Source of the DNA: a virus
Taxonomy: Duplodnaviria > Caudoviricetes
Strand: one strand, 5' to 3'
DNA length: 46,609 nt
Virus record (IMG/VR): IMGVR_UViG_3300037692_000066
Span: 1 to 46,609 of that record
In this document: positions 818 through 44,866 of the stretch, one piece after another
Layout: the number at the start of each line of letters is the position of its first letter
Position numbering within the stretch: position 1 is the stretch's first letter
Translations under genes and position numbers: made by a program
Notes under the pieces: model-generated
Databases searched by the model: none
What the model saw: only the letters and a program-made list of their open reading frames with translations
What the model was told of the DNA's origin: nothing

Positions 818-1681
818 ATGAAAATAGGATTGATCGACATAGACGGGAAATACCCAAACTTGGCATTGATGAAAATTAGTGCTTATCATAAATCACTTGG
901 GCATGATGTGGAATTTGCAAAACTCACACACTATGATAAATTGTACATAAGTAAGCTATTCAAGTTTTCTGAAATTAATTACAATACACTGACAACGGCA
1001 AAGGAAATATGTATTGGAGGAAGTGGATATGATTTAAGTGTAAGATTGCCCGAAGAAATAGAATTGCAGGATCCTGATTATTCGATCTATCCAAATTGCA
1101 ATTTTTCACTACAATTTTATTCTCGTGGCTGTATTCGTAAATGCCCTTTTTGTATTGTGCATGAAAAAGAAGGTAAAATTCAATCAGTTAAAAAATTAGA
1201 TTTAAACCCTAAAGGAGAATGGATCGAAGTTTTAGATAATAATTTCTTTGCAAATCCCAATTGGCGTGAAGCAATAGAAGATTTACAGGCTACAAAGCAG
1301 AAAGTAAATTTACATGGCGTAGATGTTAGAATAATGGATGAAGAGCAAGCACAGGCTTTAAATAGCTTAAAACACCACAAGCAAATACACATTGCTTGGG
1401 ATAATCCAAAAGATAACATTTTGCCTAAAATAGAAGCTATGCTGAAATGGATTAAGCCTTACAAAATTATGTGCTATGTGCTTATTGGCTATTGGAGTAC
1501 TCCCGAACAAGATTTACAAAGAATAGAGGCGTTGAGAAAATTAAAAATAGATCCATTTGTTATGCCATTTAATAAATCGGATCCGTACCAAAAAGCATTT
1601 GCAAGATGGGTAAATCACAAGGCAGTTTTTAAAACTTGCTCTTGGGAAGAATATAAGAGCGGAAAGCACAACGCTTTTTAA
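818..1681 (+). CDS. Radical SAM protein (cassette 1 cargo)
   Basis: CxxxCxxC motif RGCIRKCPFC, LDNNF motif, N-terminal 'PNLALMKISAYHK' typical of a phage radical SAM family. Confidence 0.85.
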   Translation: MKIGLIDIDGKYPNLALMKISAYHKSLGHDVEFAKLTHYDKLYISKLFKFSEINYNTLTTAKEICIGGSGYDLSVRLPEEIELQDPDYSIYPNCNFSLQFYSRGCIRKCPFCIVHEKEGKIQSVKKLDLNPKGEWIEVLDNNFFANPNWREAIEDLQATKQKVNLHGVDVRIMDEEQAQALNSLKHHKQIHIAWDNPKDNILPKIEAMLKWIKPYKIMCYVLIGYWSTPEQDLQRIEALRKLKIDPFVMPFNKSDPYQKAFARWVNHKAVFKTCSWEEYKSGKHNAF

Positions 1682-1685
1682 TTAA

Positions 1686-1781
1686 TGGTAACGATGGGGC
1701 TATGTTTTCGGTTGGCTTTGCAGAAATTGTCAAGTTACCGAAAAACTTAATTAGCCAACTGAAATATAGCCGTTGTTAGCA
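1686..1781 (+). mobile_element. attC-like hairpin site 1
   Basis: TGGTAAC, then arms GGCTATGTTTTCGGTTGGC (1698-1716) and GCCAACTGAAATATAGCC (1754-1771), then GTTAGCA (1775). Confidence 0.75.
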
Positions 1782-1867
1782 AATCGGCTTGCTCGTGCGA
1801 TTTTTCAGATAGATACTGGGATAAAAATGGCAGCAAATGCTTAAAATGTGGCAAACACTTTTCTTAG
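1775..1867 (+). pseudogene. Start-less Cys-rich mini-ORF in cassette 2 (VSKSACSCDFSDRYWDKNGSKCLKCGKHFS)
   Basis: Open frame from the GTT at 1775 to TAG at 1865-1867, with a CxC...CxxC pattern. An in-frame TGA lies upstream at 1760-1762. Confidence 0.4.
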
Positions 1868-1877
1868 CAAGCTGTTT

Positions 1878-1930
1878 GCATAACGTTGAGTATAAACCAT
1901 CGTTTTAATGTGGTTTATACATTGTTGTAC
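1878..1930 (+). mobile_element. attC-like hairpin site 2
   Basis: GCATAAC, perfect arms GTATAAACCA (1890-1899) and TGGTTTATAC (1911-1920), then GTTGTAC (1924). Confidence 0.7.
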
Positions 1931-1967
1931 ATCTGTATTGCGGTATTAAAAAACAAAACTTTGAATT

Positions 1968-3062
1968 ATGCACGAACACAGTAATAACATTTTTGAGCGA
2001 GGGCAAATGGCTGACGAAGGAAGCCAAGGAATTAACGTACTTTCTCTTTTTAACGGAATGAGTACAGGACATACCGCGCTTGACAATGTAGGAATCAAAG
2101 TAGATAAATATTACAGTAGCGAGCTGAAACCTTATGCAATAGAATTGACACAATATCACTATCCTGAAACAATACAATTAGGCGATGTAAATAATTGGCA
2201 TGAATGGGATATTGATTGGAAAAGTATTGATTTGCTTTTAAGCGGAAGCCCTTGCAAGGATTTAAGTGGCGCAGGAAAAAGAGCCGGAATATATGGTGAA
2301 AATAGTGGTTTGTTTTGGCGATTCATTGAAATATACGAACACATAAAAGAACTAAACCCAAATATAATTTTCTTCCAGGAAAACGTAGGAAGTGCATCTA
2401 AAACAGATATTGGTATAATGAGTAGGGCAATGGGAATTTATCCTTGTAGAATTAACTCTGAACTTGTTACAGCACAACAACGTGATAGATATTACTGGAC
2501 CAATGCACGAACAAAGCAAACAATGTTTGATACCGTAACAGATATACCATACCCACAGGATAGAGGTATTTTGCTTAAAGATATTATTGAAAATGGTTAT
2601 GTTGACCGAGATAAAGGACGTGCGATTTTAGAAAGTGAAAGCCGACTAAATACCGATATGAAAAAACTATTGAGAAGATACAAAACTACAGGATTTGGAA
2701 ACGTTGTTTATTGTGTTGCTCAAAGAGGACGTGGAAGCGGAAAAGGAAATTACACCCAACAATATGAAGTAAACAAAACACAAAAAAGCAATACCATTAC
2801 TTTAGTAGATAAAGATAATGCTGTATTTAATGGCGAAGAAATAAGACCATTTACAAAGGTTGAACTTTGTAGATTACAAGGCTTTCCGGATAATCATTGT
2901 GATATATTGAGCAGAAATAAAGCAGCTTCTCTTTTAGGCGATGGTTGGACTTTGCCAATTATAGAACACATCTTCCAATATTTACCTTTTAAAAAAGCGA
3001 GGGAAGAAAAAAATGTTATTACGGAATATAAGCACGAACCATTGAATGAAACAGGAACGTAG
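1968..3062 (+). CDS. DNA cytosine-C5 methyltransferase (cassette 3 cargo)
   Basis: Motifs SLFNG (I), GSPC (IV), ENV (VI), QQRDRYYW (VIII), RLQGFP (IX), LGDGW (X). Confidence 0.92.
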   Translation: MHEHSNNIFERGQMADEGSQGINVLSLFNGMSTGHTALDNVGIKVDKYYSSELKPYAIELTQYHYPETIQLGDVNNWHEWDIDWKSIDLLLSGSPCKDLSGAGKRAGIYGENSGLFWRFIEIYEHIKELNPNIIFFQENVGSASKTDIGIMSRAMGIYPCRINSELVTAQQRDRYYWTNARTKQTMFDTVTDIPYPQDRGILLKDIIENGYVDRDKGRAILESESRLNTDMKKLLRRYKTTGFGNVVYCVAQRGRGSGKGNYTQQYEVNKTQKSNTITLVDKDNAVFNGEEIRPFTKVELCRLQGFPDNHCDILSRNKAASLLGDGWTLPIIEHIFQYLPFKKAREEKNVITEYKHEPLNETGT

Positions 3063-3071
3063 CAATATTGT

Positions 3072-3165
3072 GTACAACGGTTGAAGCTATGCACCGTAAA
3101 GCATAGCACAGTGTTTAATTTTAGTACAAACTTATCCGCTTTATGGTGTATAGCTTGTGTTAGCA
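3072..3165 (+). mobile_element. attC-like hairpin site 3
   Basis: GTACAAC, arms AAGCTATGCACCGTAAAGC (3084-3102) and GCTTTATGGTGTATAGCTT (3138-3156), then GTTAGCA (3159). Confidence 0.78.
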
Positions 3166-3179
3166 AACGTTTTTTAATT

Positions 3180-3389
3180 ATGAAAAGAAAATTTTTAAAA
3201 GTAGCAAAAGAATTAGGATTTAAAATTATATCATACAAATCAACCGTATCTGATATGGGATGCAGAATTGTTGATATAACTGTTGAGAAGAATGGTAAAC
3301 AATTTTCTGATGATTGGGGTTACTGGTCATACCAAAAAGAAGATGCACCTGATTACTTTAGAAGAGGGCTTCTTAAATATGTTTGCTAA
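3180..3389 (+). CDS. Hypothetical protein (cassette 4 cargo)
   Basis: ATG at 3180 after an AT-rich leader. The stop TAA lies inside the TAAC core of the next site. Confidence 0.65.
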   Translation: MKRKFLKVAKELGFKIISYKSTVSDMGCRIVDITVEKNGKQFSDDWGYWSYQKEDAPDYFRRGLLKYVC

Positions 3390-3514
3390 CGGTGGTGGTA
3401 TGGTGTCGTAGCGGATTAAAAGCACCAACCTATCGAATAAAATAAAACTTAATACAATGCGAATAACTTCAAATACAGCACAATCCCCGCTATGCACTAT
3501 ACCACGTGTTACTG
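3384..3514 (+). mobile_element. attC-like hairpin site 4
   Basis: TGCTAAC, arms GTGGTATGGTGTCGTAGCGG (3395-3414) and CCGCTATGCACTATACCAC (3487-3505), then GTTACTG (3508). Confidence 0.78.
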
Positions 3515-4251
3515 GCAGTACGGCTTTAACGCACGGTTCTCTTTTCTCTGGGATTGGTGGATTTGAAATTGGGGCAGAAAGAGCTGGAATAAAAACACTT
3601 TGGAATTGTGAATTTGAAAACTACCAACGTAATATTTTAAAGAAAATTGATAAAGATGCAGAACAATATACAGACGTTAGAACCGCAGAAATCAAAAGAT
3701 ATGTGGACATTATTAGTGGAGGATTTCCGTGTCAAGACATTAGCGTTGCAGGAAAAATGGAAGGTATCAAAGGAGAACGCAGTGGGCTTTGGAGTGAAAT
3801 GTGGAGAATTATTAGGGAAATTAGACCTAAATACGTCATCATTGAAAATAGTCCAGCTTTACTTATTCGAGGATTTGAGCAAGTCTTATGCGACCTTTCC
3901 AAAATCGGGTATGATGCAGAATGGCAATGTATATCAAACATTGCTTTTGGATACCCACACAAAAGGGAAAGACTGTACGCTATTGCCTACTCCAACGAAA
4001 TCGGATTACAAAGCGACATTTGCAAACAAAGAGCCACTAACTCGATATTTAGAAAGTGGACATCAAATCAGAATGATGGATATACTTTGTCAAAAAGGGT
4101 TCACGAAATCCCAGCGTGTGATGTTATTAGAAATGGCGATGGGTTTCAAAGCTGGACACACAGAGTTGGAAGTGTCGGAAATTCCGTAAATCCAACATTA
4201 GCACATTATCTATTTGAGTGCATAAAAGTTCATTATGAAGCACTCACGTAG
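3457..4251 (+). CDS. DNA cytosine-C5 methyltransferase, alpha-like subunit (cassette 5 cargo)
   Basis: SLFSGIGG, GGFPCQD, ENS, HKRER and GNSV motifs. Motif IX is not evident in this frame. Confidence 0.9.
   Translation: MRITSNTAQSPLCTIPRVTGSTALTHGSLFSGIGGFEIGAERAGIKTLWNCEFENYQRNILKKIDKDAEQYTDVRTAEIKRYVDIISGGFPCQDISVAGKMEGIKGERSGLWSEMWRIIREIRPKYVIIENSPALLIRGFEQVLCDLSKIGYDAEWQCISNIAFGYPHKRERLYAIAYSNEIGLQSDICKQRATNSIFRKWTSNQNDGYTLSKRVHEIPACDVIRNGDGFQSWTHRVGSVGNSVNPTLAHYLFECIKVHYEALT
3656..4189 (+). CDS. Overlapping alternative-frame methyltransferase beta-like subunit
   Basis: Long nested ORF with 'FPKSGMMQNG', 'LLPTP' and a motif IX-like 'EMAMGFKAGHT'. Same layout as the M.EcoHK31I alpha/beta pair. 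Confidence 0.7.
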   Translation: MQNNIQTLEPQKSKDMWTLLVEDFRVKTLALQEKWKVSKENAVGFGVKCGELLGKLDLNTSSLKIVQLYLFEDLSKSYATFPKSGMMQNGNVYQTLLLDTHTKGKDCTLLPTPTKSDYKATFANKEPLTRYLESGHQIRMMDILCQKGFTKSQRVMLLEMAMGFKAGHTELEVSEIP

Positions 4252-4257
4252 TATTGC

Positions 4258-4381
4258 CAGTAACGGATTAGTGTATGAGCAGTAGCCGAACACAGACCTT
4301 GATTAGAAGTAGAAACTTAAATATTAACAACTGCAATAGTTTAAAACGCCTAACGGCTATTGCTTATACACTTTGTTAGGC
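4258..4381 (+). mobile_element. attC-like hairpin site 5
   Basis: CAGTAAC, arms AGTGTATGAGCAGTAGCCG (4270-4288) and CGGCTATTGCTTATACACT (4354-4372), then GTTAGGC (4375). Confidence 0.78.
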
Positions 4382-4391
4382 AACGTTTATT

Positions 4392-4679
4392 ATGGAAAAA
4401 TTAAACAAATTAATTCAAAGATGTAAGTGTGGTGTTTACCTTACAGTAAATTCACATCGTGATTATTACGAAACGGTAGAACAACATTTTAAATCAAATC
4501 CAATAAATGAAGAAGATTTAGAAGATATTTATAAAGATGTTTATGAAAAAATGAAAGAGTTAAATATTATAATAGAACTACAATATTATCCAGATACACC
4601 AATCGGATTTTATAAAGTTTATCATTATGATTTACAAATGGCAATTGACGAAGCACTGTCTTCTTTAAATGTTGCCTAA
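4392..4679 (+). CDS. Hypothetical protein (cassette 6 cargo)
   Basis: 95-aa ORF. Its stop lies in GTTGCCTAAC, which is complementary to the cassette start GTTAGGCAAC. Confidence 0.75.
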   Translation: MEKLNKLIQRCKCGVYLTVNSHRDYYETVEQHFKSNPINEEDLEDIYKDVYEKMKELNIIIELQYYPDTPIGFYKVYHYDLQMAIDEALSSLNVA

Positions 4680-4692
4680 CTTACTTATATAA
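4666..4692 (+). mobile_element. Truncated attC-like half-site at the array end
   Basis: TAAATGTTGCCTAAC followed by TTACTTATA. No matching right arm or GTT was seen. Confidence 0.5.
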
Positions 4693-4714
4693 CAACTTCA
4701 ATAAATTGAACCTT

Positions 4715-4948
4715 ATGCAACTAACTGATAAAGAGCAAAAAACAATAGATAAGTTTGTTAATTTCATAATGGATAACAATGTATCAAATGAGTTTTTGGT
4801 TCAAATTATTGAACTTGCAGGAGGATTTGTGGATGTCGAAAGCATTCAAGATAGGGCAAAACGCACAGGGCTAAGCTATAATGGAGTGAAAAAAACAAGA
4901 AATATACAAAAGATATTCGGACAAAATTTTGTAATAGGCAAAGAATAA
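4715..4948 (+). CDS. Small hypothetical protein, possible HTH
   Basis: 'SIQDRAKRTGLSYNGVKK' is HTH-like. The stop overlaps the terL start. Confidence 0.6.
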   Translation: MQLTDKEQKTIDKFVNFIMDNNVSNEFLVQIIELAGGFVDVESIQDRAKRTGLSYNGVKKTRNIQKIFGQNFVIGKE

Positions 4949-6954
4949 TGACACACGTAGATTACCTTTTATCTCTTTACGAATCAGAAATCACAACCGA
5001 ACTTCCAAGCGAATGGGCTGCAAATAATCGTATATTGACTTCTGATGTAACAGCCTTTCCCGGCAAAGCATCTTTGGATAGATTTCCATATTGGAAAGAG
5101 CCGCTAGATTTACTATCTCCAGACGACCCGACACACATAATTACAATTATGGGGGGTGCTCAAATTGGAAAATCAACGAATTTTATAGAATCTGGAATAG
5201 GGTATTTAATAAAAAACCATCCCGGAAACATAGTCTTGACTTCTGCGGACAAAGAAATGACCAAAACTCAAATGTCAAAGAAAATTGACAACATGTTAGC
5301 TAATTCAGGATTAAGCTATTTGATACGCCCAAACACCATAAAGAAAAAGAACCTAAAAACAGGGGATAGAGACGACATGAAAGAGTTTCCGGGCGGCTCT
5401 TTAATGGCCCAATCGGTTAAAGCAGTAGATAAAATCAAACAAAACTCTTTTAGATACGGATTTTTTGACGATTTTGAAGCGGCTGTAAGGGGTCAAAAAC
5501 AAGCCGGTGATATTTTAGATTTATTATTTATGCGATTTAATTCGTTTAAAGATAAAATGAAAATATCCATCCTTTCAACTCCGGAGGTAAAACAAAGCTC
5601 TATGATTGAGCCGGCTTTTTTGATGGGGGACCAAAGATATTATAATATGCATTGCCCTAAATGCGGAGATCTTATAAATTATATTTGGAATAAGACCGAG
5701 GAAGAAACAGGCGAGATTGTTGGTGTGTATTTTGAAAAAGATGAAAATAATAAGTTAATAGAAAAAAGCGTAGGATATGTTTGTCAGAAATGCGGGGGTT
5801 TTTTCAAGGAAACGCATAAAAAAGATATGATGAGTTTAGGAAATGGGGCTATTTGGATTCCAACAGCTGAACCAAGCCGACCAGACTGGAAGAGTTATCA
5901 TATTTCAGGTCTTTATTCGCCTCCAGGATTCTTTGATTGGACGCACCACGTCCGCCAATGGATGAATATTTTTCCCGAAAACGGAATAATTCAAGAATCA
6001 AAATTACAAGTTTTTACAAATTTAGTTTTGGGATTGACATACGAAGAAACTGCAAAAAATACAGATGCTTCGCTAATTTCAAGAAACCTAAGAGAATATA
6101 AAATCGGAGTTATACCGGATGAATTTGCCGAAAGTGACGGAAACGGAAAAATAATCATGCTAACTTGTGCTTGTGACTTAAACGGATTTGAGGACGATTG
6201 TAGATTAGATTATGAAATTGTTGCTCACTCGCAAAGCGGCTCTACTTATTCAATCGAACACGGAAGTGTAGGTACGTTTCAAAGAGGAGCTTCAAAAGAA
6301 GGGCGTGAGCTGTGGAATTACTTTGTAGGGCAACCACGTAATGTGTGGGATGTATTCCGTGAAATTGTAAGCCGTGAATTTGAAATGCAATCAGGAAAGA
6401 AAATGCGTATAGTAGCTACCGGAGTAGATAGCGGACACTTTACACAGCATGTCTACCAATTTGTCGAACAAGGCATTCCAAATATGTATGCAGTTTCATT
6501 AAAGGGTGATGCAGACGAAAGAAGCCGACCAACTAGAGCCGACACAATGACGTTTAAAAAATCCCGTGAGCGCTTCGATATGTATCTAGTTCAAACTAAC
6601 CAAATCAAAGACTATGTTTCAGAGTGCATGAAACTAAAACAAATTGACAGCGCACAACCAGCAGGGTTTATGAATTATCCAAGCCCCGAGAATGGACTAT
6701 ACGATTACCGTTATTTTGACCAATACGAAGCAGAAGTAAGGCGACCTGTTAACTCGAAGAATGGAATAGAGATAGCGTATGTTTGGGAGAAAAAAACATC
6801 TCAATCAGCCAACCACTGGTTTGACTGCCGAGTTTACAATATTGCTATTCGTGATATTTTCGCTTATAATCTAGTTAAGGCTTATAATTCAACTGCAAAA
6901 ATCAAAGTAGAGTACACTTGGGCTAATTTTGTGAAATTGATACTAAACCAATAG
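4948..6954 (+). CDS. terL: Terminase large subunit, GpA family
   Basis: Walker A GAQIGKST, Walker B-like FFDDFE, STP motif, CPKC and CQKC, C-terminal NHWFDC nuclease motif. Confidence 0.95.
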   Translation: MTHVDYLLSLYESEITTELPSEWAANNRILTSDVTAFPGKASLDRFPYWKEPLDLLSPDDPTHIITIMGGAQIGKSTNFIESGIGYLIKNHPGNIVLTSADKEMTKTQMSKKIDNMLANSGLSYLIRPNTIKKKNLKTGDRDDMKEFPGGSLMAQSVKAVDKIKQNSFRYGFFDDFEAAVRGQKQAGDILDLLFMRFNSFKDKMKISILSTPEVKQSSMIEPAFLMGDQRYYNMHCPKCGDLINYIWNKTEEETGEIVGVYFEKDENNKLIEKSVGYVCQKCGGFFKETHKKDMMSLGNGAIWIPTAEPSRPDWKSYHISGLYSPPGFFDWTHHVRQWMNIFPENGIIQESKLQVFTNLVLGLTYEETAKNTDASLISRNLREYKIGVIPDEFAESDGNGKIIMLTCACDLNGFEDDCRLDYEIVAHSQSGSTYSIEHGSVGTFQRGASKEGRELWNYFVGQPRNVWDVFREIVSREFEMQSGKKMRIVATGVDSGHFTQHVYQFVEQGIPNMYAVSLKGDADERSRPTRADTMTFKKSRERFDMYLVQTNQIKDYVSECMKLKQIDSAQPAGFMNYPSPENGLYDYRYFDQYEAEVRRPVNSKNGIEIAYVWEKKTSQSANHWFDCRVYNIAIRDIFAYNLVKAYNSTAKIKVEYTWANFVKLILNQ

Positions 6955-43182: not shown

Positions 43183-43205
43183 GTTGGTAACAAAATGTTA
43201 CCAAC
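43183..43205. promoter_or_regulatory. Perfect 10-bp inverted repeat, candidate operator
   Basis: GTTGGTAACA-AAA-TGTTACCAAC. Confidence 0.45.
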
Positions 43206-43280: not shown

Positions 43281-44048
43281 ATGAAAATAGAAAGATTTAC
43301 AAAAAACGAATTTAGCACGCTTACGACAATTACAAATGAAAAAAACGGTGTTGTTATGTTTGTTGGAAAAGAAATTGCCGATATGTGGGGACATACAAAT
43401 CTTACTCAAGCAATTAAATCGGCTCACTTAAATAGTGACGAGTATAAAAAAATAATTTTATCAAAATACCCGGAATTTAAGAATCAACTGACTAATTCTA
43501 ATTTAGTCGGTGGGAGGTCTTCTAGTATAACTCTTTTAACAGAGAGTGGAATGTATAAACTTGCGCTTGCTTCAAATTTAGAAAAAGCGAAGCCATTCAG
43601 AGATTGGGTTACAAGTGAAATACTCCCATCCATAAGAAAACATGGATATTATTCAATAGCCGACCAGTCAAATGCTGTTATGATACACACAAACGTATCA
43701 ATACAAAAAAACAACAGTAAGGATATTAACGCTAAAAATATGATTGAAAGCGGACTTGAAAAAGTAATCGAATATAATCGAGAAAGTTGTTTGTTGCATA
43801 CCGGAAAAACACCAAAAGACATTAAAGAACTTGGAAAACAAATAGGGCTTCCATCAACTCAAAGAACAAGTGCAAAAGAAGTTTTAAGACACACAAAACC
43901 TGAATTAGCGTGCGCTATGAGTTTTACCGATTCTCTTGTTAAAAAAGGGTTTGATTTAAAAACTGTTTCTGAATTATCACTTAAATCAGCAGTTCCATTA
44001 TTTCAAGGAATGATTGAGCTTGGGATTAAACCGAAAGAATTAGAATAG
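43281..44048 (+). CDS. Bro-N domain protein (antirepressor-like)
   Basis: 'FVGKEIA..WG', 'LLTESGMYKLAL.S...AKPFRDWVTSEILPSIRKHGYY'. Confidence 0.88.
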   Translation: MKIERFTKNEFSTLTTITNEKNGVVMFVGKEIADMWGHTNLTQAIKSAHLNSDEYKKIILSKYPEFKNQLTNSNLVGGRSSSITLLTESGMYKLALASNLEKAKPFRDWVTSEILPSIRKHGYYSIADQSNAVMIHTNVSIQKNNSKDINAKNMIESGLEKVIEYNRESCLLHTGKTPKDIKELGKQIGLPSTQRTSAKEVLRHTKPELACAMSFTDSLVKKGFDLKTVSELSLKSAVPLFQGMIELGIKPKELE

Positions 44049-44866
44049 TGGCTAAAGATAAAAAATCATTCATTCTATATGCCGAATTGCTTCAAACTTT
44101 TGAAGAGTTGAGCAACGAAGAGGCTGGAATTTTAATCAAGCATATACTTAGATATGTGAATGATTTAAACCCAGACGCACCAGATAGGCTAACAAAATTA
44201 TTGTTCACCCCGATAAAAAACACGCTAAAAAGAGATTTGGTAAAATACGAAGAAACAAAATCAATAAAAAGTACATCCGGTAAACTTGGAAACTTAAAAC
44301 GCTGGAATTTAGATTTATATGATAAAGTTATTTCAAAAGAATTAACAATTGAAGAGGCTGAAAATGTCGCAAAAAATCGCATATGCGATAATCGTATCGC
44401 AAACGTCGCTGTAAATGATAATGTAAATGTAAATGTAAATGATAATGATAATGAATATAAGAAAAAATACTTATCTGAAATTAAAATTTCAGATTACCCC
44501 GAATTAAATAAATCTTATTTTGATATTTCTATATCATTTCAAGAACTATTTAAAAATAATCTCAAAGAAGCTGGAGCCTCAACTTCTAAAATAGAAAAAG
44601 CAAAAGGAATATGGGTTGATGATATTAGAATGATAATTGAAATTGACAAATACACGGTTGAAGATTTACAGCAGGCATATAAATTTCTCCAAGTAAACGA
44701 ATTTTGGAAAAAGAATATTTTAAGCACGGCGAAGCTTCGTGAAAAAATGGATAAAATAAAACTAGAACTTAAAAATTCAAATGGATCAAAACAAAAACAT
44801 ACAACAGACGACATCCAGGCAATTGTCAAAGCAGGGGCAGCACTCGCCGCAGCGCGTGAAAGTTGA
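44048..44866 (+). CDS. Replication initiator-like protein (DUF6291-type N-terminus)
   Basis: 'KKSFILY...LSNEEAG.LIK.I..Y', NDNVNVNV linker, C-terminal 'FWKKNILSTAKLREK'. Confidence 0.75.
   Translation: MAKDKKSFILYAELLQTFEELSNEEAGILIKHILRYVNDLNPDAPDRLTKLLFTPIKNTLKRDLVKYEETKSIKSTSGKLGNLKRWNLDLYDKVISKELTIEEAENVAKNRICDNRIANVAVNDNVNVNVNDNDNEYKKKYLSEIKISDYPELNKSYFDISISFQELFKNNLKEAGASTSKIEKAKGIWVDDIRMIIEIDKYTVEDLQQAYKFLQVNEFWKKNILSTAKLREKMDKIKLELKNSNGSKQKHTTDDIQAIVKAGAALAAARES
44366..44455. repeat. Candidate replication origin within the rep gene
   Basis: Five RTCGC/GCGAT units (44366-44409) followed by tandem GTAAAT/GATAAT hexamers. Confidence 0.45.

What the first reader, a model, noticed from the sequence alone, without database searches (positions are those of the whole stretch)
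1686..4381. Hairpin mismatches are top-strand G-T wobbles at fixed positions, unlike canonical attC
Seen: in the inner arms of sites 1, 3, 4 and 5, all 8 substitution mismatches are G (left arm) opposite T (right arm). The first always falls at TAT-G / T-ATA, and sites 1 and 4 also have one bulged T. In the outer cassette-closing stems a T-G pair follows exactly 10 bp in cassettes 4, 5 and 6. Established: classical attC sites recombine as the folded bottom strand. Inference: selection here acts on folding of the coding strand, as ssDNA or as RNA with G-U pairs. This suggests a distinct site class with reversed strand choice, or an RNA-level role such as processing or an RNA intermediate in cassette formation.
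Basis: partly seen in the sequence, partly recalled or inferred. Interest (0 to 1): 0.8.

Follow-up and report, generated by a model that had tools for sequence, protein, structure and literature searches.

The report
Backward gene cassettes with wobble-marked sites
This phage carries five small cassettes joined by hairpin-forming sites whose fixed G-T mispairs lie on the gene-coding strand only because the genes run backwards compared with most bacterial arrays of the same site family, so the mispairs likely mark the DNA strand that a simpler-than-usual integron-like recombinase would cut, rather than an RNA structure.

Summary
Observation confirmed: 8 of 8 inner-arm mismatches are G(left)-T(right), and cassettes 4-6 have a wobble at pair 11. 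It is a family trait: G-T 454 against A-C 16 and C-A 61 in 288 sites. The RNA reading fails: cellular arrays carry the same wobbles on the non-coding strand. Genes lie on the wobble strand in 46 of 57 viral loci (11 unclear, none opposite) but on the other strand in 22 of 35 cellular loci. So the genes are flipped, not the strand rule. Each hairpin belongs to the gene after it and can supply its start codon. The outer wobble and the deeper inner wobble are the same position in two symmetric half-sites. Related arrays sit beside a tyrosine recombinase lacking the IntI insertion. This phage has none; its array ends in an attI-like tail, a palindrome and a small conserved gene. Recombination itself is inferred. 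The scan noted this system before on other DNA; I found no description in eight literature searches.

The parts
1681..1692 (+). Left end of the array: a lone half-site (A-T-N6-TAAC) with no complementary partner upstream
   Evidence: Best upstream partner 7 of 10 in the 1688 bases available; T at position 11 as in other half-sites
1689..1778 (+). Site 1: hairpin with G-T at 10 and 15 bases from the right GTT and a bulged T on the left arm
1692..1883 (+). Unit 1 (hairpin 1 plus cassette 2): a 30-codon cysteine-rich frame with no start codon; the wobble T is the first base of an in-frame stop
   Evidence: unit limits inferred from a crossover at AA|C
1881..1927 (+). Site 2: short perfect 10-bp hairpin; the same hairpin occurs with other neighbours in run X1 and resembles Polaribacter phage P12002L attC1
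1968..3062 (+). Cassette 3 gene: C5 cytosine DNA methyltransferase (PF00145, E 4e-28)
3075..3162 (+). Site 3: 19-pair hairpin with two G-T pairs
3159..3390 (+). Cassette 4 core, closed by 10 pairs then G3169-T3380; holds a 69-aa ORF (3180-3389) of no known family
3387..3511 (+). Site 4: hairpin with two G-T pairs and a bulged T; its loop holds the ATG (3457) of the next gene
3457..4251 (+). Cassette 5 gene: C5 DNA methyltransferase (PF00145, E 5e-41) that starts inside hairpin 4; core 3508-4264 closed by 10 pairs then G3518-T4254
   Evidence: the same core with unlike hairpins, each giving an in-frame ATG, in L081 and L082
4261..4378 (+). Site 5: 19-pair hairpin with two G-T pairs
4375..4680 (+). 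Cassette 6 core, closed by 10 pairs then G4385-T4670; holds a 95-aa ORF (4392-4679) of no known family
4669..4696 (+). attI-like tail: half-site followed by N5-TATAT and no hairpin; matches the tail in front of phage-borne recombinase genes
   Evidence: function inferred
4697..4710 (.). Palindrome TTCAA-N4-TTGAA, 16 bases after the terminal TAAC; a second copy at 4800 inside the gene
   Evidence: a YAAC lies 15 or 16 bases upstream in 23 of 24 distinct loci that have the palindrome; 6 of 34 loci examined lacked the exact pattern
4715..4948 (+). 77-aa viral protein that occupies the recombinase's place at the end of recombinase-free arrays; predicted helix-helix-hairpin C-terminus, weak likeness to excisionases (lead only)

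Best explanation
The region is an array of five gene cassettes joined by hairpin-forming sites whose genes lie backwards relative to most bacterial arrays of the same site family, and the fixed G-T mispairs likely mark the single DNA strand that folds and would be cut at AA|C by a tyrosine recombinase lacking the IntI insertion, likely borrowed from the host or another phage. Shown: wobble positions and polarity, gene inversion in phages, hairpin linked to the following gene, two-fold symmetry of the folded site, and the recombinase's place beside related arrays. Inferred: each unit is C-hairpin-GTT-gene-YAA; as a circle it folds into two symmetric half-sites (T-N6-YAAC and its degenerate copy on the other arm), each with a T-G wobble at position 11, which exist only on one strand and so fix strand and insertion direction in place of extrahelical bases; new units enter at the attI-like tail at 4680, the far end of the transcript; the wobble at distance 10 and the bulges distinguish the half that is not cut. 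Inferred more weakly: inversion puts the folding strand on the coding, probably lagging-template strand, which would speed shuffling, and lets hairpins carry start codons.
For: Wobbles: G-T 454, C-A 61, T-G 20, A-C 16 in 288 distinct sites oriented by spacer asymmetry alone. Same polarity in gene-inverted arrays (distance 15: 232 of 271) and canonical arrays (41 of 91); outer pair 11: 138 of 162 and 29 of 39. Gene strand: viral loci 46 inverted, 0 canonical, 11 unclear; cellular 22 canonical, 10 inverted, 3 unclear. Independent samples drawn by recombinase: phage cassettes 64 inverted, 0 canonical, 15 unclear; cellular 18 canonical, 4 inverted, 1 unclear. Unit limits: hairpin shared in 42 of 73 site pairs that share the downstream flank but 2 of 26 that share the upstream flank; 12 of 23 against 1 of 20 by family; arrays close on the 3' side with a hairpin-less YAAC in 18 of 22 viral and 15 of 21 cellular arrays, chance 16 of 400; own left hairpin gives the ATG in 29 of 31 start-less cassettes, background 25-35%. 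Symmetry: profile correlation 0.82 at one register, next 0.25, in 223 non-seed sites, outer positions only; 0.68 against 0.24 in 74 canonical sites. Recombinase: sites upstream in 25 of 27 phage loci with room, none in the other polarity; two or more sites near 10 of 20 cellular family members and 0 of 20 other tyrosine recombinases; insertion absent. A site of this family was called 'bottom strand' on the phage coding strand and was the one of six that IntI1 did not recombine (PMC9892861).
Against: No recombination was observed: contigs of four runs show no joint across any cassette, and the window encodes no such recombinase. Hairpin linkage is loose: 28 of 73 pairs with the same downstream flank have unlike hairpins, including cassette 5 itself, so a second exchange route or repeated cassette assembly is needed, and my test for a second cut point was inconclusive. 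A C-A mismatch on the wobble strand at distance 6 in 46 of 271 sites runs against strict wobble selection. The distance-15 wobble is weaker in cellular sites (41 of 91). 7 of 15 viral arrays also show a partner on the 5' side, above chance, probably missed hairpins but not checked. 10 of 35 cellular loci are inverted; I did not test whether they are prophages. Loci are related and some repeat, so the P values overstate independence. GC skew (32 of 36 viral, 4 of 21 cellular positive) may reflect coding bias and not replication.
Confidence: 0.72

Rival explanations
1. The sites recombine as duplex DNA in Xer fashion; the G-T pattern is a fixed sequence asymmetry between arms read by the protein, and hairpin folding is incidental.
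For: The recombinase's best solved relatives are XerA-like and it lacks the segment that docks extrahelical bases (PMC7790495, passages). T is kept more strictly than the pair (T at outer position 11 in 160 of 162), as a base-specific contact would be.
Against: The L half-site only exists when arms 10 to 130 bases apart pair; arm sequences vary freely while pairing is kept (4604 Watson-Crick pairs in 271 sites); the wobble strand folds better in 226 of 271 and 78 of 91 sites.
Confidence: 0.12
2. Selection acts on RNA: G-U hairpins in the transcript serve processing, termination or an RNA intermediate in cassette birth.
For: In phages the wobble strand is the transcript, it folds better as RNA in 213 of 271 sites, and hairpin loops carry start codons.
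Against: In cellular arrays the same wobbles are on the non-coding strand, which is the better RNA folder in 83 of 91 sites. Outer wobbles pair cassette ends hundreds of bases apart and mirror the inner one as a half-site. No Rfam family matches. No reverse transcriptase was found in the window. RNA ends could not be examined.
Confidence: 0.07
3. A site class with truly reversed strand choice: the enzyme uses the 'top' strand of an otherwise canonically oriented cassette.
For: Relative to the genes, the folding strand is the top strand in this window.
Against: Every gene-independent polarity marker (spacer asymmetry, wobbles, hairpin linkage, attI-like tail, recombinase side) keeps the same relation in phage and cellular arrays; only the gene strand differs.
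Confidence: 0.05
4. An ordinary CALIN: classical attC sites acted on by a classical IntI of the host.
For: Core triplets, cassette layout and G-T bias match integrons (PMC5027507); phage CALINs with methyltransferases are published (PMC9892861); one of 31 array-bearing genomes has a true IntI.
Against: No conserved extrahelical base on the arm where attC carries it (right-arm G bulges 4 in 271 sites); 30 of 31 genomes have no match over the IntI cut-off; the one clear family member tested with IntI1 failed.
Confidence: 0.04

Closest known systems
Classical integrons: IntI, attI, attC cassettes (class 1; Vibrio sedentary integrons)
   Same: Cassettes bounded by complementary GTT/AAC cores, imperfect hairpins, G-T excess on one strand (PMC5027507, passages), array ending at an attI-like site beside a tyrosine recombinase.
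   Different: Fixed wobbles in two symmetric half-sites in place of extrahelical bases; outer stems of about 14-15 pairs; recombinase about 40 residues shorter, without the IntI insertion; in phages the genes are inverted and often start inside the hairpin.
Phage CALINs of Qi et al. 2023 (PMC9892861), in particular Polaribacter phage P12002L
   Same: Recombinase-free arrays in phages carrying DNA methyltransferases; P12002L attC1 is the same short hairpin type as site 2, with its 'bottom strand' on the coding strand.
   Different: That paper reads them as ordinary attC with 'divergent directions'. It describes no gene inversion, wobble code or separate recombinase in the parts I read; its attC2 overlaps what I read as the terminal tail, cloned in the opposite sense.
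Integron-like tyrosine recombinase subgroup of Smyshlyaev et al. 2021 (PMC8138268) and Xer recombinases
   Same: [quoted passage not shown]
   Different: The paper calls the insertion essential for integron function and, in the passages read, links no cassette arrays to the insertion-less members; Xer acts on duplex sites without cassettes (recalled).

Membership tests
Classical attC site | Complementary RYYYAAC / GTTRRRY cores at the two ends of each cassette | tested here: met
   10 of 10 pairs in cassettes 4-6, interrupted in 2 and 3; 222 of 315 cassettes with 9 or 10 of 10
Classical attC site | Imperfect hairpin more stable on one strand, with G-T excess on that strand | tested here: met
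   published rule in PMC5027507
Classical attC site | Conserved extrahelical bases on the L'' arm of the folded strand | tested here: not met
   Right-arm bulges are rare (G 4, T 7, A 7 in 271 sites); the common bulge is a T on the other arm (36)
Classical attC site | Gene usually upstream of its own attC, on the non-folding strand | tested here: not met
   Genes on the folding strand, hairpin before the gene; met in most cellular arrays of the family
Classical attC site | Detected by the IntegronFinder or HattCI models | not testable with these tools
   Models not available; the paper's HattCI call of P12002L attC1 suggests that short members can be detected
Classical attC site | Strand-specific recombination by IntI | not testable with these tools
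   One family member failed with IntI1 in PMC9892861; a single published negative
Integron integrase (IntI, TIGR02249) | Tyrosine recombinase catalytic residues | tested here: met
   In array-adjacent proteins of related loci: R132, K157, H221, R224, H247, Y256 invariant in 11 rows; no such gene in the window
Integron integrase (IntI, TIGR02249) | IntI insertion with the I2 helix; score over the curated cut-off | tested here: not met
   Matches cover model positions about 2-180 and 237-315 only; 1 of 31 genomes over cut-off; residues 177-198 stand for 180-244 of PDB 2a3v; 10 of 11 aligned rows lack it, the eleventh being the true IntI
Complete integron | Recombinase gene beside attI and array | tested here: not met
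   None in the window, which may be incomplete; met in related phages, including Polaribacter phage Leef_1
Known structured RNA (Rfam) | Match at or above a gathering score | tested here: not met
   0 matches in the window; best E 1.8 in 1600-4800
Excisionase / MerR-like recombination directionality factor (77-aa protein) | Winged-helix fold matching solved excisionases | tested here: inconclusive
   Best rows RdfS Z 3.2 (rmsd 5.9, 53 aligned) and Pukovnik Xis Z 3.0 (rmsd 1.9, 39 aligned), tied with unrelated rows; Foldseek best E 0.4; no Pfam family for the window protein; HTH_17 only under the bar

The most novel reading that the evidence does not exclude
A second, undescribed branch of integron-like systems, spread through Bacteroidota, Patescibacteria and their phages, that shuffles single-stranded cassettes with an insertion-less, Xer-like recombinase reading a symmetric wobble code: a living model of the state before IntI gained its I2 helix. 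Phages have rebuilt it with inverted genes so that hairpins double as swappable translation-start modules, and recombinase-free phages such as this one keep their own landing pad, run by a small excisionase-like protein bound at a palindrome next to attI that recruits a borrowed recombinase.
Probability: 0.3. Interest if true: 0.92.

Novelty: new variant of a known kind. Interest (0 to 1): 0.76.

Why it matters
Integron integrases are thought to have gained single-strand recombination through the I2 helix that docks extrahelical bases, and intermediates are said to be lacking (PMC7790495, passages). A common cassette system with neither feature makes that origin testable with cultured phages (Leef_1, P12002L). 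It implies a large cassette pool in a phylum where standard tools report almost no integrons (PMC9024848, passages). The near-universal inversion of genes in phage arrays, and start codons supplied by the site, bear on the open question of how cassettes are made and oriented, and give phages a route to swap anti-restriction methyltransferases.

Tried and rejected
Rfam at both thresholds gave nothing. Relatives of the upstream radical SAM gene (80 loci kept of 284) held no array with two sites at score 11 and no empty version of this locus, so the pre-insertion site was not found. The cassette 6 protein had two weak relatives only. BLASTN against isolate phages hit only the methyltransferases; the 77-aa protein has no match there. 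No close cassette was found in both orientations: 35 cross-class tblastx hits were all opposite in strand but 29-49% identical domain matches, so simple flipping of a cellular cassette is not shown. The idea that a second strand exchange in the L half swaps hairpins was tested on 28 pairs: identity was raised at most positions with no boundary, inconclusive. Contigs of runs X1-X4 showed no joint; contigs drop rare forms, and X1 may be the source. RNA ends were not examined. Sequence and fold searches for the 77-aa protein named no family; absence from those lists excludes nothing. The array recombinase was not found in 24 records that carry the small gene (one weak hit, E 2e-11), but only 3 of them are at least 90% complete. 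My first idea that hairpins travel with neither neighbour was replaced by loose downstream linkage. No covariance model or R-scape test was run.
Full report
Context. The window is a single 46,609-base virus record with lambda-like head genes, a contractile tail, RecT and replication genes. The array lies between a radical SAM gene (818-1681) and the large terminase (4948-6954). No tyrosine recombinase was found by Pfam, PHROGs or tblastn. A Bacteroidota host is inferred from relatives, not shown.

Observation. I wrote a stem finder that scores G-T and A-C alike. It found the five sites, three weak unrelated hits elsewhere, and 1, 0 and 0 hits in three shuffles. The eight mismatches are G-left, T-right at exactly 10 and 15 bases from the right GTT.

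Larger sample. One pattern that leaves the wobble positions free found 119 viral and 97 cellular loci (flanks were fetched for 80 of each). In the viral set the finder gave 362 sites; 340 had a spacer difference of 2-4 and 288 of these were distinct. Oriented by that asymmetry alone they hold G-T 454, C-A 61, T-T 56, T-G 20, A-C 16. The exception is a subfamily with C-A at distance 6 (46 of 271).

The genes are flipped, not the strand. Longest-ORF strand against site polarity gave 46 viral loci with genes on the wobble strand, none opposite, 11 unclear; cellular loci gave 22 opposite, 10 on the wobble strand, 3 unclear (window, L081 and L082 included; four cellular loci are one genome). Samples drawn by recombinase instead of pattern agree: phage cassettes 64, 0, 15 unclear; cellular 4, 18, 1 unclear. 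In canonical arrays the wobbles keep place and polarity: distance 15 in 41 of 91, distance 10 in 28 of 91, against 232 and 109 of 271 in inverted arrays (loci without a gene-strand class left out). There the wobble strand is not the transcript, yet it is the better folder as DNA (78 of 91) and as RNA (83 of 91). G-T excess on the recombining strand is the published attC rule (PMC5027507, passages). So the window's top strand plays the part of the attC bottom strand.

Unit of mobility. The array opens with a lone TAAC before hairpin 1 and closes with TAAC and no hairpin at 4680. A closing partner on the 3' side was found in 18 of 22 viral and 15 of 21 cellular arrays with room, on the 5' side in 7 of 15 and 3 of 10; chance is 16 of 400. 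Site pairs that share only the downstream flank share the hairpin in 42 of 73 cases, those sharing only the upstream flank in 2 of 26; by family, 12 of 23 against 1 of 20 carry one hairpin type. Of 186 inverted cassettes, 31 are open for 60 codons from the core with no ATG in the first 25, and in 29 the left hairpin supplies an in-frame ATG, against 25-35% of 183 hairpins at large. Cassette 5 is such a case, and the unlike hairpins before the same gene in L081 and L082 also supply one. The unit is thus hairpin then gene, with the crossover inferred at the left AA|C. Linkage is loose: 28 of 73 pairs have unlike hairpins, and identical hairpins precede different cassettes. How hairpins are exchanged is unexplained.

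One rule for both wobbles. Outer stems with at least 9 of 10 pairs show G-T at pair 11 in 138 of 162 inverted and 29 of 39 canonical cassettes; 75 with weaker stems and 7 unclassified were dropped. The T is kept in 160 of 162. The base profile 5' of the core AAC matches the right arm at one register only (position 1 = distance 5): correlation 0.76, next 0.24; 0.82 against 0.25 for positions 5-12 in 223 sites that did not match the search pattern; 0.68 against 0.24 in 74 canonical sites; the 16 canonical seed sites gave no clear peak on positions 5-12. Position 11 of one half is the outer wobble and of the other the distance-15 wobble. The folded site is therefore two symmetric half-sites around a short centre, as expected for two recombinase monomers (Xer-like layout recalled, not from a call). 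The distance-10 wobble has no counterpart in the core half (pair 6 is Watson-Crick in 161 of 162) and may mark the half that is spared; this is inference. Modelled circular junctions fold better on the top strand in 5 of 5 units.

The enzyme. Array-bearing genomes hold a recombinase that matches TIGR02249 on both sides of the IntI insertion but not across it; 1 of 31 genomes passes the cut-off. Of 14 array loci with both a hit and a site, 13 have it at the 3' end of the wobble polarity; L277 is the exception. Of 42 phage loci scanned (of 45 returned), 27 had 1.5 kb upstream and 25 of these had sites, none in the other polarity. In a phylum sample 28 of 81 genomes have a family member; two or more sites lie near 10 of the 20 best hits fetched (of 32) and near 0 of 20 other tyrosine recombinases. 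Catalytic residues are intact and the insertion is absent. The cultured Polaribacter phage Leef_1 has four sites upstream of such a gene.

The platform in this phage. The terminal junction matches the tail before phage recombinase genes. Sixteen bases on lies a TTCAA-N4-TTGAA palindrome and then a 77-aa gene. Of 34 loci with this gene examined, 28 have the palindrome, 24 are distinct, and 23 of these have YAAC 15-16 bases upstream; 18 of 22 with room have sites upstream, none reversed. The protein folds with confidence (pLDDT 91) and resembles excisionases only at the level of chance rows. A sequence look-up in earlier notes returned only an unrelated hit. I treat it as a lead for a directionality or regulatory factor.

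Why invert? Flanks are G-skewed on the wobble strand in 32 of 36 viral and 4 of 21 cellular loci. [quoted passage not shown] Inversion would place phage sites on that template if replication follows transcription. This is inference; skew can come from coding bias.

Literature. Eight searches of open PubMed Central papers and bioRxiv found no description of inverted phage arrays, the wobble code or an insertion-less cassette recombinase. Subscription papers and bioRxiv supplements are not covered. Read: PMC9892861 (passages, section 3.4 whole, part 1 of 2 of its supplement; figures and the Dryad file not seen); passages only of PMC5027507, PMC8138268, PMC7790495, PMC9024848, PMC5371416; all others as search listings. 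In PMC9892861, P12002L attC1 is of this family, its 'bottom strand' is the phage coding strand, and it alone of six gave no verified IntI1 product. Earlier notes of this scan report the same system, inversion and position-11 wobble on other DNA. My reading was written down before I saw them; they are not independent support.

Verdict. Observation confirmed; interpretation partly supported. It works like an integron cassette array but fails the extrahelical-base and IntI-insertion tests, so it is not filed as a classical integron. New variant of a known kind; interest 0.76.

Noticed in passing
window 4697-4710, 4800-4813, 44091-44104: Three copies of the palindrome TTCAA-N4-TTGAA: beside the attI-like tail, inside the 77-aa gene (a second copy in 12 of 24 related loci) and inside the replication gene at 44048-44866. 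Possible operator.
   Followed up: partly
window 43185-43203: Short perfect inverted repeat built of the core triplets (TGGTAAC, 5 bases, GTTACCA) upstream of the BRO anti-repressor gene; shares its left half with the array's left end.
   Followed up: no
window 1730-1870: Cassette 2 holds a 30-codon cysteine-rich frame without a start; the conserved wobble T begins an in-frame stop, so its present hairpin may silence it.
   Followed up: partly
window 3647-4189: A 180-codon frame overlaps the cassette 5 methyltransferase on the same strand and itself hits a PHROG labelled DNA methyltransferase (E 7e-14); may be a shared off-frame annotation or a real overlap.
   Followed up: no
L146, L149, L161, L170, L181, L189, L190, L194: Many inverted phage cassettes share a C-terminal domain of about 60-90 residues that also occurs, on the opposite strand, in cellular cassettes of L289, L301 and L302; not identified.
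   Followed up: no
run X2, loose end behind window 3174: A contig follows the window through the first 16 bases of cassette 4 and then continues with other sequence: cassette end modules may be reused on different genes, which bears on cassette birth.
   Followed up: no
L261, L270, L313, L322, L336 (Patescibacteria records): Candidate-phylum genomes carry canonical arrays of this site family with a shared attI-like tail; a 270-aa insertion-less recombinase lies beside the array in L261.
   Followed up: partly
L428: A cellular array of 12 sites with mixed gene orientation (7 canonical, 4 inverted): a place to look for exchange between phage and host cassette pools.
   Followed up: no
L499 32223-39245: Polaribacter phage P12002L has further sites of this family on its minus-strand gene block, beyond the two reported in PMC9892861.
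   Followed up: partly
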